Of a DNA stretch of 23,925 nt, positions 2,399 through 6,514 are shown piece after piece. Each line of letters begins with the position of its first letter. Positions within the stretch are counted from its first letter, which is position 1. The DNA lies in the IMG/VR virus record IMGVR_UViG_2654587569_000016; one strand, given 5' to 3'. Under the pieces are notes generated by a model that was not told where the DNA came from, did no database searches, and was given only the letters and a program-made list of their open reading frames with translations. The translations under genes were made by a program, and so were the position numbers. This DNA is from a virus (lineage: Duplodnaviria > Heunggongvirae > Uroviricota > Caudoviricetes).

Positions 2399-2438
2399 CT
2401 GCTTTTCCCTTAGCCCGGCGGCCTGCCGGGCATATAAG

Positions 2439-3266
2439 TTATTTAACCTGGATAAAGGGTGTATTGGCTCCGCTGGTCATGTATTGCGGCAGTGTGCCGT
2501 TCCATTTATTGATGGCTTCCAGCTCCATAACTCCGGGGTTCTGGCGCAGAGCTTCACCGCGTAAACGAATAGCATCGGCTTCGGCCTGGGCTTTTGTGCG
2601 AATTGCATCTGCCTGTCCGGCAGCCTCCGCACGCAACATGTTGGCTTCCGCTTCGCGCTGTTTTACTTCCTGCTCGCGTTGCAGGGTTTTCTGGTTTGCC
2701 GTGACTTTGGCGTTAATGCTGTCGATAACGGTTGGCGGGTACTCCGGTTTACCTACATAAGACAGGCTCATTACCTGAATACCGATGGGCGTCATTTCTG
2801 CCTGAATATCTTTTAGAGCTGCATCCAGTAGTTCAGATTTGCCACCGTCGATAAATTTATCAGTGGTCATTTTGCTGGCCAGCCGATTTAGTGCATCTGC
2901 TATCTTCTGGCGCAGGTCGGTGTCGGTAATGTCATCCACACCTTTGCGGTAGGTTTGAAACACCGTGGTAACTTTGGATGGATCAACCTTGTAGGCTACT
3001 CCGATGTGGTAACCAATGGTTGTTCCATCGCTCATCTGGAAACTGAATGGATCATCGTAGGTCTTCATCTGCTTAAAGGTCGGGAAGATATAAACTTCAG
3101 TGTTCCAGCCTGTCCAGTAGCGACCAACACCGACCACTTCACCGACGCCTTTGTCGTCGCCAAGTTTGTTGACTTTGATGCCCACATTACCAGGCTCAAC
3201 ACGATCACAACCGACAAGGCCAATGGCAGGCAGAACAATGGCTAAAGAAAAAATAATTTTTTTCAT
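2439..3266 (-). CDS. SPFH/band-7 (prohibitin-homology) domain lipoprotein
   Basis: 275 aa; N-terminal signal peptide with lipobox (LVGC); central band-7-like region and alanine/glutamate-rich coiled-coil tail (EAEANMLRAEAAGQADAIRTKAQAEADAIR); AAGGA RBS; ATGA overlap with the upstream gene. Confidence 0.8.
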   Translation of the reverse strand: MKKIIFSLAIVLPAIGLVGCDRVEPGNVGIKVNKLGDDKGVGEVVGVGRYWTGWNTEVYIFPTFKQMKTYDDPFSFQMSDGTTIGYHIGVAYKVDPSKVTTVFQTYRKGVDDITDTDLRQKIADALNRLASKMTTDKFIDGGKSELLDAALKDIQAEMTPIGIQVMSLSYVGKPEYPPTVIDSINAKVTANQKTLQREQEVKQREAEANMLRAEAAGQADAIRTKAQAEADAIRLRGEALRQNPGVMELEAINKWNGTLPQYMTSGANTPFIQVK

Positions 3267-3451
3267 CTTTTATCCTTAGTGAAAGAAAGCCCCTTATAAA
3301 TGGCATAAATGCATGGCGGGGTCAGAAACGCCAGTGCAAAGCCAGAAATTACCGCTACCGTATCCTTCATTGATATCAGAAACGGGACGAGTAATCCGTA
3401 AATGCATGAGATAATTGCCAGTGATATGACTATTCTGAAATAAATATTCAT
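3263..3451 (-). CDS. Small two-pass membrane protein (62 aa)
   Basis: Two hydrophobic helices (IVISLAIISCIYGLLVPFLI and VISGFALAFLTPPCIYAIY); start and stop codons overlap both neighbours as ATGA. Confidence 0.6.
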   Translation of the reverse strand: MNIYFRIVISLAIISCIYGLLVPFLISMKDTVAVISGFALAFLTPPCIYAIYKGLSFTKDKR

Positions 3452-3726
3452 GCTCCTCCTGATATCTTTCTGATTGCCTTTTTCAACTTTTTACTGTTAT
3501 TCACGCTACAGTAAATTTCGGCAATCTCACGTGATAACATTATTTCTCCACTGTTTTTATCTATAGCAACGAGACCGGGATTGTCTCGTATGAGTTTCTT
3601 TATCATTGGCATTGCCATAAACTCTTCTGGCGTATAGATGCGTGTATGGCGGCGAACGTGTTTTATCACAGGTGTTTTATGTTTTGACTCAACCTGAAAT
3701 ACATTAATTTTATTCTGATTTGACAT
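3448..3726 (-). CDS. Hypothetical protein (92 aa), first gene of the coupled SPFH triplet
   Basis: ORF whose stop overlaps the start of the membrane peptide; basic, no recognisable domain. Confidence 0.55.
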   Translation of the reverse strand: MSNQNKINVFQVESKHKTPVIKHVRRHTRIYTPEEFMAMPMIKKLIRDNPGLVAIDKNSGEIMLSREIAEIYCSVNNSKKLKKAIRKISGGA

Positions 3727-3728
3727 AT

Positions 3729-4310
3729 TTAATGTGCCACTGGTGTTTCTGGCATACCATGAGTATTCAGATCGTGAATCATTTCATCCAGAAGAAGTTC
3801 AAGCCCTTCTCGTCCCATAGCAGAGACAATGAAGCCATTATCAGGATCTGCGATGAGCATTTTTTGATAGAGAAACAGAACTCGCCCCATGCCTTCAGCT
3901 TCGCCATATTTTTCAATGAATCCCCATTCGACATGGTTTTGCAGGGCAATGCGAATTGGTTCAGGGTATATACTCATGCAACCATATTTCCCCTTATAAA
4001 TAACTGCACGATATGTAGTCCCATTATCGTTAGGGATATCAACGGTGCCGTTCCTGACTTCCTCTTCATTTATAAACGTCGTAACATACAGCCAGCGCCA
4101 TTGAGCAACTTTCATATCGACGGATAATTTTCCCAGCAATCCGGCATCATCCGCTTCAGCAAGGCACTGAAGAATTCTTAAACCGCGTGAATTTGGATAA
4201 TCATATTCACCATCATTAAGTCGCTGTACGGCCTCGGCATAATCTATGGTTGTATTGCCAATTTTTATACCGTGTGGCGTAACTTCTGGTCGGAACTCTG
4301 AATGATTCAT
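3729..4310 (-). CDS. Hypothetical protein (194 aa from internal ATG)
   Basis: ATG at 4310 preceded by AAAGGAG; ORF track offers a longer alternative to 4367; ends 2 nt from the next gene. Confidence 0.55.
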   Translation of the reverse strand: MNHSEFRPEVTPHGIKIGNTTIDYAEAVQRLNDGEYDYPNSRGLRILQCLAEADDAGLLGKLSVDMKVAQWRWLYVTTFINEEEVRNGTVDIPNDNGTTYRAVIYKGKYGCMSIYPEPIRIALQNHVEWGFIEKYGEAEGMGRVLFLYQKMLIADPDNGFIVSAMGREGLELLLDEMIHDLNTHGMPETPVAH

Positions 4311-5727: not shown

Positions 5728-5756
5728 ATAATAGGTTTGCCGATTTTTCCTGTCAA
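5728..5756 (-). promoter_or_regulatory. PL-like sigma70 promoter (TTGACA, 17-nt spacer, TATTAT) reading leftward
   Basis: On the minus strand: -35 TTGACA (plus 5751-5756), 17-nt spacer, -10 TATTAT (plus 5728-5733); flanked by CCGAT/ATCGG inverted repeats. Confidence 0.5.
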
Positions 5757-5777
5757 TCGGTTTATCGATTTCTTTCC

Positions 5778-5803
5778 AAAAAAAAGCCCACTTAAGAGTG
5801 GGC
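5778..5803 (-). terminator. Intrinsic terminator downstream of cI
   Basis: Perfect 7-bp stem GCCCACT/AGTGGGC with 4-nt loop, followed on the minus strand by eight U; 19 nt after the cI stop. Confidence 0.6.
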
Positions 5804-5821: not shown

Positions 5822-6514
5822 TTATGCAAAACGGTGTAGTGTCATAGGCCAACTGACAATTACTTTTCCGTCAATGTGAAGTTGTTCAAAGTCTTCCGGT
5901 TCGATAGCCCAATCCTTGTAAGCTGGGTTGTCAGATATCACCGTTAGAGTATCTTTGATTTTTTGAAGTCTTTTGATGTGCGATGTTCCAGAGTATGTAA
6001 AGGCGTATATACCATCACCATTAAATGCGCGAACTGATACATCTACAAATACCAAGTCTTCAGGGTCTATTGTGCCTTTCATACTGTCGCCGTGGGCGTT
6101 TATTGCTTTGATTGCTGATGCTGGCCTGCCGCCAAAAACTCTTGATGCGTATCCTGGTTCTATCGCTATAGATCTGACAATGTCAGGAAAATCAGAGTTA
6201 TAACTACCAGGTCCGCAACTATATCTGATGTCTAAAACATCCACGACATACGAATCAGTAACCCAATCCTCAGAAATGTTACGTATTTGGTGTGAGTCTG
6301 CAGAGGTCACGATTTCCATTGGGCCAACACCCGATGCGAGCCATTCCGGGTTAACGCCCAAAACTTTTGCTATTTCGACTGTTTTTCTGGAACCGTTGGC
6401 TTTGTTAAGTAGTTGATTGACACTGGACTGAGCCATACCCACTTCTTTGGCCAGCCTACCTTGCGTAAATTTTGCGTTGCGCATAGCTAAATCAAGTCGT
6501 TCTGAAAATGTCAT
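5822..6514 (-). CDS. cI: CI-type prophage repressor (HTH plus LexA-like S24 peptidase domain)
   Basis: 230 aa; N-terminal HTH (QGRLAKEVGMAQSSVNQLL); C-terminal autocleavage module with GDSM serine motif and KRL lysine; divergent from a cro-like gene. Confidence 0.9.
   Translation of the reverse strand: MTFSERLDLAMRNAKFTQGRLAKEVGMAQSSVNQLLNKANGSRKTVEIAKVLGVNPEWLASGVGPMEIVTSADSHQIRNISEDWVTDSYVVDVLDIRYSCGPGSYNSDFPDIVRSIAIEPGYASRVFGGRPASAIKAINAHGDSMKGTIDPEDLVFVDVSVRAFNGDGIYAFTYSGTSHIKRLQKIKDTLTVISDNPAYKDWAIEPEDFEQLHIDGKVIVSWPMTLHRFA

What the first reader, a model, noticed from the sequence alone, without database searches (positions are those of the whole stretch)
2439..3726. Translationally coupled three-gene module ending in an SPFH/band-7 lipoprotein
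Three consecutive minus-strand genes (92 aa unknown, 62 aa two-pass membrane peptide, 275 aa SPFH lipoprotein) are linked by ATGA overlaps, implying fixed stoichiometry. SPFH proteins pair with small membrane partners and scaffold membrane proteases; the host HflK/HflC SPFH complex controls FtsH, which degrades lambda CII. A phage SPFH module in the early-left operon, where lambda carries the FtsH inhibitor cIII, could be a phage-encoded modulator of the lysis-lysogeny decision or a membrane-level exclusion system.
Basis: partly seen in the sequence, partly recalled or inferred. Interest (0 to 1): 0.75.

Follow-up and report, generated by a model that had tools for sequence, protein, structure and literature searches.

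The report
Two-gene phage SPFH membrane-cage module
The real unit here is two genes, a tiny two-pass membrane protein and a lipid-anchored SPFH scaffold protein; the pair is widespread in temperate and strictly lytic phages (including model phage N4) and in bacterial chromosomes, has no known function, and the third gene and the link to the lysogeny decision do not hold up.

Summary
The three minus-strand ORFs and both ATGA overlaps are real. The 275-aa protein is a confident SPFH/Band-7 lipoprotein, and the 62-aa protein has two membrane helices.

The conserved unit is a pair, not a triplet:
- The 92-aa gene is a narrow ORFan of E. coli/Citrobacter prophages. It occurs without the pair, and the pair nearly always occurs without it.
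- Four-base overlaps are common throughout this operon.

The 62-aa/SPFH pairing is very well supported:
- The two genes are adjacent, and usually overlap, across bacterial phyla and many phage types: lambdoid, P2-like, P1-like, SSU5 and N4 (gp19-gp20).
- About 14% of distant relatives are single-chain fusions of both proteins.
- A profile built only from the fusions' N-termini finds the 62-aa protein at 52 bits; shuffled versions reach at most 19.

The predicted structure matches full protomers of all cage-forming SPFH proteins. The lipobox, the Asp at +2 and the fusion topology place the cage on the periplasmic face of the inner membrane.

The protein is not an HflK/HflC equivalog, has no NfeD partner, and matches no PADLOC defence model. 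Its presence in virulent phages and in ordinary chromosomal loci argues against a role specific to lysogeny.

I found no functional study of it. My best guess is an early-expressed module that shields or partitions the inner membrane.

The parts
3263..3451 (-). Gene for the 62-aa two-pass inner-membrane partner (N-in/C-in predicted; short periplasmic turn ...VPFLISMKDT...)
   Evidence: ORF. Two hydrophobic segments and charge distribution. PHROG 1130 at E 1.5e-23. Homologous to the N-terminal domain of fused SPFH proteins: 52 bits, E 2e-15, against at most 19 bits for 2000 shuffles. Always followed by a Band_7 gene in the reverse look-ups.
2439..3266 (-). Gene for the 275-aa SPFH/Band-7 lipoprotein: signal peptide with lipobox LVGC (Cys20, Asp21), SPFH domain about 20-175, long helix 178-242, short helix 244-254, conserved C-terminal W255-G257-P260 tail
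   Evidence: Pfam Band_7 at E 1.1e-30. PHROG 200. AF2 model at pLDDT 90.8. Foldseek matches to full protomers of HflK/C, prohibitin, erlin, stomatin, flotillin and QmcA. Invariant columns. +2/+3 residues are Asp-Arg in 99 of 107 close homologues that have a lipobox.
3263..3266 (-). ATGA start/stop overlap coupling the partner gene to the SPFH gene; SD-like TAAGGA lies upstream
   Evidence: In 32 diverse loci the junction overlaps in 22 (ten of them by 4 nt), and no gap exceeds 21 nt.
2413..2431 (-). 7-bp GC hairpin (GCCCGGC-AGGCC-GCCGGGC) just after the SPFH stop, with no U-tract. It marks the 3' edge of the cassette and is not a canonical terminator.
   Evidence: -17.1 kcal/mol, z -1.7. The same hairpin is present in phiP27, but P88, the P1 variant and KpCHEMY26 have different 3' flanks.
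3448..3726 (-). 92-aa soluble basic ORFan (U92). It is adjacent and overlaps by ATGA, but it is NOT part of the conserved module; it travels with the upstream L06-like gene (3729-4310).
   Evidence: No match in any family library. Only 10 clusters among 5.8 billion proteins. Found without the pair in ASU11 and three other prophage contexts. Present in only 7 of 86 loci. AF2 pLDDT 68 with no fold match.
5728..5756 (-). Best sigma-70-like promoter on the minus strand (TTGACA-17-TATTAT, 11 of 12), just after the repressor gene's terminator-like hairpin (5786-5803). It is the likely pL-type promoter that drives the whole leftward operon, including the pair (inferred).
   Evidence: No promoter-like site lies on the minus strand between 3266 and 4860, and none lies upstream of the partner gene in phiP27.

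Best explanation
The functional unit is a self-contained two-gene cassette (3263-3451 plus 2439-3266).

Shown:
- The 275-aa protein is an SPFH/Band-7 protein with a lipoprotein signal. Its predicted protomer (SPFH domain, one roughly 65-residue helix, conserved C-terminal tail) matches the protomers of every solved SPFH cage.
- The 62-aa protein is homologous to the N-terminal two-helix domain of natural single-chain versions of the same SPFH protein.
- The two genes are adjacent, and usually overlap, across phyla and phage types.
- The 92-aa gene is unrelated to the unit.

Inferred:
- After Lgt/LspA processing, the SPFH protein is held by its lipid anchor on the periplasmic face of the inner membrane. 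The evidence is Asp at +2 in the enterobacterial clade, and the fusions, whose two-helix domain plus signal-like third helix can only sit in the inner membrane with the SPFH domain outside.
- It oligomerises into a ring or cage, as other SPFH proteins do.
- The two-pass partner, made 1:1 by translational coupling, supplies the membrane-spanning part of the assembly. Its conserved P-x-L-[IV]-S turn lies where the SPFH domain meets the membrane. Together they would fence off a patch of inner membrane.

Expression is read from position only. In this prophage the cassette has no promoter of its own and lies in the repressor-controlled leftward early operon. In P2-like, P1-like and N4 phages it also lies among early genes. 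It would therefore be made early after infection or induction.

Most likely role (my commitment, roughly 35-40%): an accessory device that shields or compartmentalises the inner membrane of the infected cell. It could do this by excluding superinfecting phage DNA or by buffering membrane damage. It is not a lysogeny-decision regulator.
For: Family and fold:
- Pfam and PHROG hits.
- AF2 model at pLDDT 90.8.
- Foldseek probability 1.0 over 240-300 columns to HflK/HflC, PHB1/2, erlin1/2, stomatin, flotillin, QmcA and MVP.

Pair linkage:
- 82 of 85 close SPFH loci have the partner by tblastn. The other three are explained by a diverged partner or a truncated contig.
- The same pairing is seen in phiP27, P88, a P1 variant, KpCHEMY26, N4 gp19-gp20 and SSU5 061-062. 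In rV5-like phage 4MG the partner is present but separated from the SPFH gene by one small ORF.
- Of 80 diverse genomic loci, 32 have an adjacent partner and 1 is fused by profile search; about 12 more have one by eye.
- Junction overlaps are conserved.
- Reverse look-ups from three partner clusters always find Band_7 next, with a 4-nt overlap.

Fusions:
- 20 of 142 distant full-length representatives are fused, and nearly all keep the lipobox Cys.
- They are scattered over 14 clusters in a crude UPGMA tree.
- There is also a natural P1-type fusion, P0002.
- The profile built from fusion N-termini scores the window's 62-aa protein at 52 bits; the best of 2000 shuffles scores 19.

Topology: lipobox and Asp+2; charge bias.

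Early-operon position.

Cassette behaviour:
- GC of 0.53-0.55 against 0.37-0.43 in the flanks.
- Different flanking genes in every phage type.

Weak guilt by association with exclusion genes: N4 gp18 and PhiSH19.
Against: - No experiment or multimer model supports oligomerisation, localisation or the partner contact.
- The partner is not universal. It is missing upstream of the SPFH gene in Bruynoghevirus, phiEa21-4, phiCbK, Cytophagales, Bacteroidia and Novosphingobium.
- Asp+2 is followed by Arg. From memory, a basic residue at +3 may weaken Lol avoidance.
- N4 gp20 has Tyr at +2, and distant relatives have Thr, Ser or Gly.
- A prophage SPFH protein of Pasteurella multocida (PM0222; homology to this family not checked) was detected in lysogen cells and in outer-membrane vesicles (PMC9872710). 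If it is related, that argues against strict inner-membrane retention and against lytic-only expression.
- No PADLOC defence model matches.
- The biological role is a guess based on position and analogy.
Confidence: 0.5

Rival explanations
1. A phage HflK/C mimic. The periplasmic SPFH cage engages FtsH and tunes degradation of CII-like regulators or other FtsH substrates, so biasing the lysis-lysogeny decision.
For: - HflK is the best sequence match among solved structures, but only at E 1.3e-3 and over the helical region.
- Foldseek ranks HflK first, but level with prohibitin and erlin.
- Of the E. coli SPFH proteins, HflK/C shares the inferred periplasmic orientation (established knowledge).
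- The cassette sits in the early-left operon, where lambda keeps cIII.
Against: - Scores of 24.6 and 22.7 bits against equivalog cut-offs of 134 and 159.
- One SPFH gene instead of an HflK/HflC pair, and a lipid anchor instead of a transmembrane helix.
- The same pair is in strictly virulent phages (N4, Pylasvirus, rV5-like, and others) and in non-prophage chromosomal loci of many phyla, with no conserved protease neighbour.
- No ftsH or cII linkage was seen.
Confidence: 0.12
2. A three-protein complex of fixed stoichiometry, in which the 92-aa protein is a genuine third subunit or a regulator of the SPFH pair.
For: The ATGA overlap at 3448-3451 and a strong SD (AGGAGG) inside the end of the 92-aa gene. 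The triplet recurs in 7 of 86 related loci.
Against: - The 92-aa family has only 10 clusters, all from E. coli or Citrobacter.
- It occurs without the pair in ASU11, where it overlaps DUF5406 by ATGA instead, and in 3 further contexts covering 19 contigs.
- The pair occurs without it in all other phage types.
- In P88 and KpCHEMY26 unrelated upstream genes overlap the partner's ATGA in the same way.
Confidence: 0.03
3. A lysogenic-conversion surface or vesicle lipoprotein that benefits the bacterial host (a virulence or immune-modulating factor). The model is PM0222, a prophage SPFH protein of Pasteurella multocida that reaches outer-membrane vesicles and signals through TLR1/2.
For: PMC9872710. 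The pair is common in Stx-converting and other prophages of pathogens.
Against: - Homology of PM0222 to this family was not tested.
- Asp+2 and the obligatory inner-membrane partner and fusions point to the inner membrane.
- No promoter of its own.
- Presence in virulent phages and in environmental bacteria.
Confidence: 0.08
4. A lysis device: a spanin-like pair made of an inner-membrane protein and a lipoprotein encoded by overlapping genes.
For: Superficial resemblance in gene architecture only: a small inner-membrane protein gene overlapping a lipoprotein gene.
Against: - The window has its own lysis cassette, with lysozyme at 18396-18929 and Rz at 18911-19390.
- The partner has two helices and no periplasmic coiled coil.
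- The lipoprotein is a 275-aa SPFH protein with an inner-membrane retention residue.
- The position is in an early operon, not a late one.
Confidence: 0.02

Closest known systems
HflK/HflC-FtsH complex of E. coli (PDB 7VHP, 7WI3, 9CZ2)
   Same: SPFH domain plus a long helix plus a C-terminal cap segment. The SPFH domains lie on the periplasmic side of the inner membrane. Predicted protomers superpose (Foldseek E about 1e-13).
   Different: - 16-19% identity, far below the equivalog cut-offs.
- A single gene, so presumably a homo-oligomer, rather than two paralogues.
- A lipid anchor instead of an N-terminal transmembrane helix.
- The partner is a 62-aa hairpin, not a protease.
- No evidence of FtsH binding.
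QmcA-YbbJ and other SPFH-NfeD operons (PDB 8Z5G)
   Same: An SPFH gene paired in an operon with a small membrane-protein gene, and occasional fusion of the two.
   Different: - The partner has no NfeD/OB domain (no Pfam hit at E <= 0.1).
- The partner gene is upstream of the SPFH gene.
- The QmcA SPFH domain faces the cytoplasm (established knowledge), whereas this one is exported.
Phage N4 gp19-gp20, SSU5 061-062, phiP27 L05 (PHROG 1130 plus PHROG 200)
   Same: True homologues of both proteins with the same overlapping arrangement: 62-98% identity for the SPFH protein, and profile E 1e-11 to 1e-17 for the partner.
   Different: None in kind. All are annotated only as 'membrane protein' and 'lipoprotein', or wrongly as 'serine protease', and I found no functional study.
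Early-expressed phage envelope exclusion proteins (T5 Llp lipoprotein, T4 Imm/Sp, P22 SieA) - recalled from general knowledge
   Same: Small membrane or lipoprotein genes expressed early that act at the envelope of the infected cell. This is the functional analogy proposed here.
   Different: No sequence or fold relationship. Exclusion activity of the SPFH pair is untested.

Membership tests
SPFH / Band 7 superfamily (Pfam PF01145) | Match to the Band_7 profile above the gathering score | tested here: met
   107.5 bits against a cut-off of 23.6, E 1.1e-30, residues 22-208
SPFH / Band 7 superfamily (Pfam PF01145) | SPFH alpha/beta domain followed by a long coiled-coil helix and a C-terminal segment, as in cage-forming members | tested here: met
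   AF2 pLDDT 90.8, with strands at 20-94 and 163-175 and a helix at 178-242. Foldseek probability 1.0 to full protomers of HflK/C, PHB, erlin, stomatin, flotillin and QmcA.
SPFH / Band 7 superfamily (Pfam PF01145) | Assembly into a large membrane-attached ring or cage | not testable with these tools
   Only single chains can be modelled here. The low-confidence C-terminal tail (pLDDT 58) is consistent with a segment that orders only in an oligomer, but that is inference.
HflK/HflC FtsH modulators | Sequence membership (NCBIfam equivalogs TIGR01932, TIGR01933, NF008259, NF008181) | tested here: not met
   24.6, 22.7, 18.4 and 17.6 bits against cut-offs of 134.4, 159.4, 427 and 660
HflK/HflC FtsH modulators | Two paralogous SPFH genes side by side, each with an N-terminal transmembrane anchor | tested here: not met
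   One SPFH gene, with a lipobox instead of a transmembrane anchor. The neighbouring gene encodes a 62-aa hairpin.
HflK/HflC FtsH modulators | Physical enclosure or regulation of FtsH | not testable with these tools
   No conserved protease neighbour in 32 diverse loci. The interaction itself needs an experiment.
SPFH-NfeD operon pairs | Partner protein carries an NfeD domain | tested here: not met
   No Pfam family at E <= 0.1 for the 62-aa protein, and 62 aa leaves no room for an OB domain.
Bacterial lipoproteins (Lgt/LspA substrates) | Signal peptide ending in a lipobox [LVI][ASTVI][GAS]C | tested here: met
   MKKIIFSLAIVLPAIGLVG-C20. A lipobox is found in 107 of 120 close homologues and 103 of 142 distant representatives by regex. 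Actual acylation was not tested.
Bacterial lipoproteins (Lgt/LspA substrates) | Inner-membrane retention signal (Asp at +2 in Enterobacterales; rule recalled from the literature) | tested here: inconclusive
   Asp21 here, and Asp at +2 in 102 of 107 close homologues. The +3 residue is Arg, and localisation has not been measured. The fused forms independently require the inner membrane.
PHROG 200 (lipoprotein) plus PHROG 1130 (membrane protein) | Profile match | tested here: met
   E 1.8e-114 and E 1.5e-23
Known anti-phage defence systems (PADLOC-DB v2) | Match to any defence-protein model | tested here: not met
   No hit at E <= 0.1 for any of the five proteins tested
Two-component spanins (Rz/Rz1) | An inner-membrane protein with a periplasmic coiled coil plus a small outer-membrane lipoprotein, located in the lysis cassette | tested here: not met
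   The lysis cassette with Rz is at 18396-19390. The partner has no periplasmic domain. The lipoprotein is a 275-aa SPFH protein.

The most novel reading that the evidence does not exclude
The pair builds a phage-encoded SPFH nanocage that faces the periplasm. The cage is lipid-anchored, and the two-pass partner forms its transmembrane fence. Many unrelated phages, from N4 to lambdoid, P1-like and rV5-like, deploy it early to wall off inner membrane. That could block DNA entry by rival phages, or blunt host suicide effectors that target the membrane. This would be a new, very widespread class of envelope-level phage weapon. A corollary: the fused forms, which keep an internal lipobox, would be polyproteins cut by signal peptidase II into the hairpin and the lipoprotein.
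Probability: 0.25. Interest if true: 0.8.

Novelty: new variant of a known kind. Interest (0 to 1): 0.5.

Why it matters
SPFH scaffolds (HflK/C, prohibitin, stomatin, flotillin, erlin) have recently been shown to be membrane cages, and what they enclose is an active question.

This subfamily is a minimal two-gene version. It is exported, lipid-anchored and paired with a 60-residue hairpin instead of NfeD or a protease.

It is widespread:
- It is in 383 of 50,697 phage records.
- DNA matching the region, mostly the SPFH gene, is in about one in ten complete E. coli genomes (at most 581 of 5,426, many of the matches on plasmids).
- The carriers include tractable model phages (N4 gp19-gp20, P1 variants, SSU5).

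I found no functional study, and a 2026 paper still calls its presence in phages 'unclear' (PMC13239085). Showing what it does would explain a common phage accessory gene and give a simple system for studying SPFH cages.

The result also corrects the 'serine protease' annotation, which propagates through Stx-phage records and has been discussed as virulence-associated.

Tried and rejected
- PADLOC, NCBIfam, Pfam and PHROG searches on the 92-aa protein found nothing usable. Its AF2 model (pLDDT 68) has no Foldseek match better than E 1.9.
I replaced it with an 8-sequence alignment.
- A neighbour-joining tree timed out. A crude UPGMA on identity replaced it, so 'multiple independent fusions' is only indicative.
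- A search for a conserved third gene or protease next to the pair in 32 diverse bacterial loci found only heterogeneous housekeeping genes.
- A search for a promoter or terminator belonging to the cassette found no promoter. The 3' hairpin has no U-tract, has z of only -1.7, and is not conserved between phage types.
- I considered programmed frameshifting at the A-rich junction to make a fusion. The sequence T-AAA-AGA is not a standard slippery site, and the SPFH frame has TAA stops just upstream (read). I rejected it as unsupported.
- Eight literature searches (SPFH with prophage, lipoprotein, superinfection exclusion, anti-phage, phage-encoded, lipobox or N4-like; phiP27 with serine protease; N4 gp20) gave annotation-level mentions only.
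- The spanin reading was rejected.
Full report
**1. The observation**

The window carries three consecutive minus-strand ORFs: 3448-3726 (92 aa, here U92), 3263-3451 (62 aa, here TM62) and 2439-3266 (275 aa). The stop of each upstream gene overlaps the next ATG as ATGA.

They lie in a run of co-oriented genes between a LexA/S24-type repressor (5822-6514) and xis/int (1370-1606 and 1-1314). The whole region is about 92% identical to the left end of Stx2e phage phiP27, and 99.8% identical to a prophage at yecE in E. coli MS8345.

The best minus-strand promoter-like site (5756-5728, 11 of 12 matches) follows the repressor gene's terminator-like hairpin. No promoter-like site lies directly upstream of the three genes. 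'Early-left operon' is therefore a fair description.

Tight packing is normal in this operon. Of its ten junctions, three are 4-nt overlaps and three are gaps of 8 nt or less. The overlaps alone do not mark out a complex.

**2. What the three proteins are**

*The 275-aa protein.*
- It matches Pfam Band_7 at 107.5 bits (cut-off 23.6) and PHROG 200 'lipoprotein' at E 1.8e-114.
- It begins MKKIIFSLAIVLPAIGLVG-C-D-R, a textbook lipoprotein signal with Asp at +2.
- Its AF2 model, built from 51 diverse sequences, has pLDDT 90.8. It shows an SPFH alpha/beta domain (about 20-175), one long helix (178-242), a short helix, and a less confident C-terminal tail carrying the family's invariant W255, G257 and P260.
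- Foldseek aligns 240-300 columns of it, at probability 1.0 and 15-19% identity, to full protomers of HflK, HflC, prohibitin 1/2, erlin 1/2, stomatin, flotillin, QmcA and the major vault protein. No one of them is clearly nearest.
- By sequence it is far below the HflK and HflC equivalog cut-offs. Among solved structures it reaches only E 1e-3 to HflK.
- The widespread database label 'serine protease' for this gene has no support here. Nothing beyond the SPFH fold was found apart from one weak PHROG 'protease' family hit (E 6e-4).

*TM62.* It has two hydrophobic segments, a six-residue turn, and more positive charge at the two ends. It matches PHROG 1130 and has no NfeD domain.

*U92.* It is soluble and basic and matches no family.

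**3. Triplet or pair?**

U92 fails the co-occurrence test.
- In 5.8 billion proteins it has ten clusters, all from E. coli or Citrobacter.
- In phage ASU11 its homologue sits between the same upstream gene (L06) and DUF5406, overlaps DUF5406 by ATGA, and has no SPFH pair nearby.
- Three further contexts covering 19 contigs show the same thing: U92 follows the L06-like 193-aa gene and is followed by DUF5406 or DUF4752/Ead.
- Conversely, only 7 of 86 related loci carry all three genes, while 82 of the 85 SPFH-bearing loci carry TM62 by tblastn. The other three have a diverged partner (P88, P1 variant) or a truncated contig.
- phiP27 itself has the pair without U92.

The pair passes every test.
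- It recurs with a start/stop overlap in several phage types: P2-like phage P88 (upstream gene Ead/Ea22-like), a P1 variant (within the dmt-ban interval, where reference P1 has plp-upl-tciABC), the virulent N4-like Klebsiella phage KpCHEMY26, coliphage N4 itself (gp19 membrane protein plus gp20 lipoprotein, 62% identity), and SSU5.
- Reverse look-ups from three TM62 clusters found a 275-aa Band_7 gene next, with a 4-nt overlap, in all 11 places shown. The flanking genes varied.
- The flanks of the cassette differ between phage types. The SPFH gene is more GC-rich (0.53-0.55) than its surroundings (0.37-0.43). It behaves as a mobile two-ORF cassette that plugs into host operons.

**4. Depth of the association**

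An exhaustive profile search found 3004 relatives at E <= 1e-3 and 220 at E <= 1e-30. About 142 of the best 150 are full-length at 30-64% identity, and most have a lipobox.

Twenty of these are 320-390 aa long because they carry an N-terminal extension with two hydrophobic helices and a P-x-L-[IV]-S-x-x-[ST]-like turn. A third hydrophobic segment follows, and in nearly all of them it ends in the lipobox Cys directly before the SPFH domain.

I built an HMM from those twenty extensions only and searched all short ORFs of the window and the first six loci fetched.
- It scored the window's TM62 at 52 bits (E 2e-15), the P1-type partner at E 1e-13, KpCHEMY26's at E 9e-12, and P88's at E 7e-9.
- No other of the 508 background ORFs scored better than E 0.009.
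- In later searches with the same profile, N4 gp19, SSU5 061 and 4MG_114 scored E 2e-11, 3e-17 and 1e-12.
- One thousand full shuffles of TM62 reached at most 8 bits, and one thousand shuffles that preserved the hydrophobic profile reached at most 19 bits.

So TM62 is homologous to a domain that is repeatedly fused to this SPFH protein. The fusions fall into 14 clusters of a crude tree, and a recent P1-type fusion also exists (P0002). This is the strongest evidence for a 1:1 physical partnership.

In 80 loci from a species-level genome collection, the profile found an adjacent upstream partner in 32 and a fusion in 1. These loci span Pantoea, Yersinia, Xenorhabdus, Sutterella, Desulfovibrio, Leptospira, Sphingomonas, Saprospirales, cyanobacteria, Acidobacteria, Myxococcota and others. 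About a dozen more have a two-helix ORF with a similar turn by eye.

The gene junction overlaps in 22 of 32 loci, and no gap exceeds 21 nt.

The partner is not universal. It is absent upstream of the SPFH gene in Cytophagales, Bacteroidia, Novosphingobium, Bruynoghevirus, phiEa21-4 and phiCbK.

**5. Where and when it acts (inference)**

*Location.* The fusions can only be inner-membrane proteins. With the N-terminus in, helix 1 going out, helix 2 coming back in, a basic cytoplasmic linker and a third helix going out, the SPFH domain ends up in the periplasm. In the enterobacterial clade the +2 residue is Asp in 102 of 107 homologues that have a lipobox; this is the classical Lol-avoidance signal, a rule I recall from the literature. 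Together these place the mature protein on the outer face of the inner membrane, with its first strand only about five residues from the lipid anchor.

*Timing.* No own promoter was detected here or in phiP27. The cassette sits in repressor-controlled or early transcription units in four phage types:
- the leftward operon here;
- the P2-type early operon after cox;
- the P1 interval between the C1-controlled Pban promoter and ban, co-oriented with ban;
- the N4 region just after the RNAP II genes.

This suggests early lytic expression, but it is read from position only.

**6. What it probably does**

*Mechanistic core (moderate confidence).* A homo-oligomeric SPFH ring or cage lies on the periplasmic face of the inner membrane. 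Because a lipid anchor reaches only one leaflet, the co-translated hairpin supplies the membrane-spanning part. Its conserved turn sits exactly where the SPFH domain meets the bilayer.

*Biological role (low confidence).*
- The pair is carried by temperate and strictly virulent phages of many families: 383 phage records, including N4-like, rV5-like, Felix O1-like, Burkholderia, Caulobacter, crAss-like, Lak and jumbo phages.
- It is also carried by ordinary chromosomal loci whose neighbours are unrelated housekeeping genes.
- A function tied to the lysogeny decision is therefore unlikely to be its general role.
- I favour a membrane-shielding or compartmentalising function in the infected cell, either exclusion of superinfecting DNA or buffering of membrane damage.
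- The only hints are its early position, its envelope location, and adjacency to genes annotated as superinfection exclusion in N4 (gp18) and PhiSH19.
- No PADLOC model matches.

**7. Rivals**

- *FtsH/HflKC mimicry.* Not excluded, because the periplasmic orientation is shared. It fails the membership tests and does not fit the distribution.
- *A three-subunit complex.* Contradicted by the distribution of U92.
- *A lysogenic-conversion lipoprotein.* Suggested by PM0222 of Pasteurella multocida, a prophage SPFH protein found in vesicles that acts through TLR1/2 (PMC9872710). I could not check whether PM0222 belongs to this subfamily. If it does, it would challenge both inner-membrane retention and lytic-only expression.
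- *A spanin-like lysis pair.* Excluded by the separate lysozyme/Rz cassette at 18396-19390.

**8. Known or new?**

The genes are known to databases as PHROG 200 and 1130, 'SPFH domain-containing protein' and 'lipoprotein'. Genome papers have noted them for years. In eight literature searches I found no functional study, and a 2026 paper states that the reason for an SPFH lipoprotein in a Schitoviridae phage 'remains unclear'.

I did not find the following described: the obligate hairpin partner, the lipobox-retaining fusions, and the inferred periplasmic topology. I therefore rate this a new variant of a known kind, the SPFH scaffold family.

**9. Verdict**

It does point to a widespread, uncharacterised and experimentally tractable phage module. 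Interest 0.5.

Noticed in passing
window 3448-3726 and 3729-4310: The 92-aa ORFan always travels with the upstream L06-like 193-aa gene (PHROG 1515, function unknown) in E. coli and Citrobacter prophages, whatever lies downstream. The two may form their own small unit.
   Followed up: partly
P0002 (P1-type plasmid contig); junction equivalent to window 3263-3266: A natural in-frame fusion of the P1-type partner and the SPFH protein (347 aa, 8 member sequences) arises at the A-rich overlap. It could be a real indel or a homopolymer sequencing error. In addition, 20 of 142 distant representatives are fused, and nearly all of those keep an internal lipobox.
   Followed up: partly
L185 (phage 4MG) 1141-2379: In this rV5-like phage the hairpin partner (4MG_114, profile E 1e-12) is separated from the SPFH lipoprotein (4MG_116) by a 54-aa soluble ORF. 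This is a different three-gene arrangement with an unrelated middle gene.
   Followed up: no
L170 (phage N4) 1907-3331; PhiSH19 74,140-75,457 (PMC3220722): N4 gp18, annotated 'superinfection exclusion, similar to P22 gp17', lies directly upstream of gp19-gp20. In Vi01-like phage PhiSH19 an SPFH gene also lies next to an annotated superinfection exclusion gene.
   Followed up: no
L174-L176, L179-L182, about 1860-2100: A small ParE_like gene sits two genes upstream of the pair in seven of the nine Klebsiella/Enterobacter lambdoid prophage loci shown.
   Followed up: no
window 12688-13875 (-) and 14563-15621 (+): A 395-aa DUF4236 protein is encoded on the strand opposite to the flanking rightward genes, next to an N6/N4 DNA methylase. 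This looks like an inserted accessory gene.
   Followed up: no
phiP27, Stx2 phage and KpCHEMY26 records (H1, H3-H13, H78): The SPFH gene is labelled 'serine protease' in many records, and this label has been discussed as virulence-associated (PMC8456039). No protease domain was found.
   Followed up: yes
L096 (Pacearchaeota MAG), L102 (Gerdarchaeota MAG): Contigs binned as archaeal carry the hairpin and SPFH lipoprotein pair at 38-39% identity with strong partner hits (E 6e-10 and 4e-12). This could be mis-binning, a viral contig, or a real transfer.
   Followed up: no
window 5728-5803 (-): A strong terminator-like hairpin (GCCCACT-CTTA-AGTGGGC plus a T-run) ends the repressor gene and is followed at once by an 11-of-12 sigma-70 promoter. 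This is probably the pL-equivalent of this phage.
   Followed up: no
E. coli complete genomes: 241 of the 677 matching places are on plasmids of about 75-110 kb (P1-like and SSU5-like phage-plasmids). The cassette therefore circulates between integrated prophages and phage-plasmids.
   Followed up: partly
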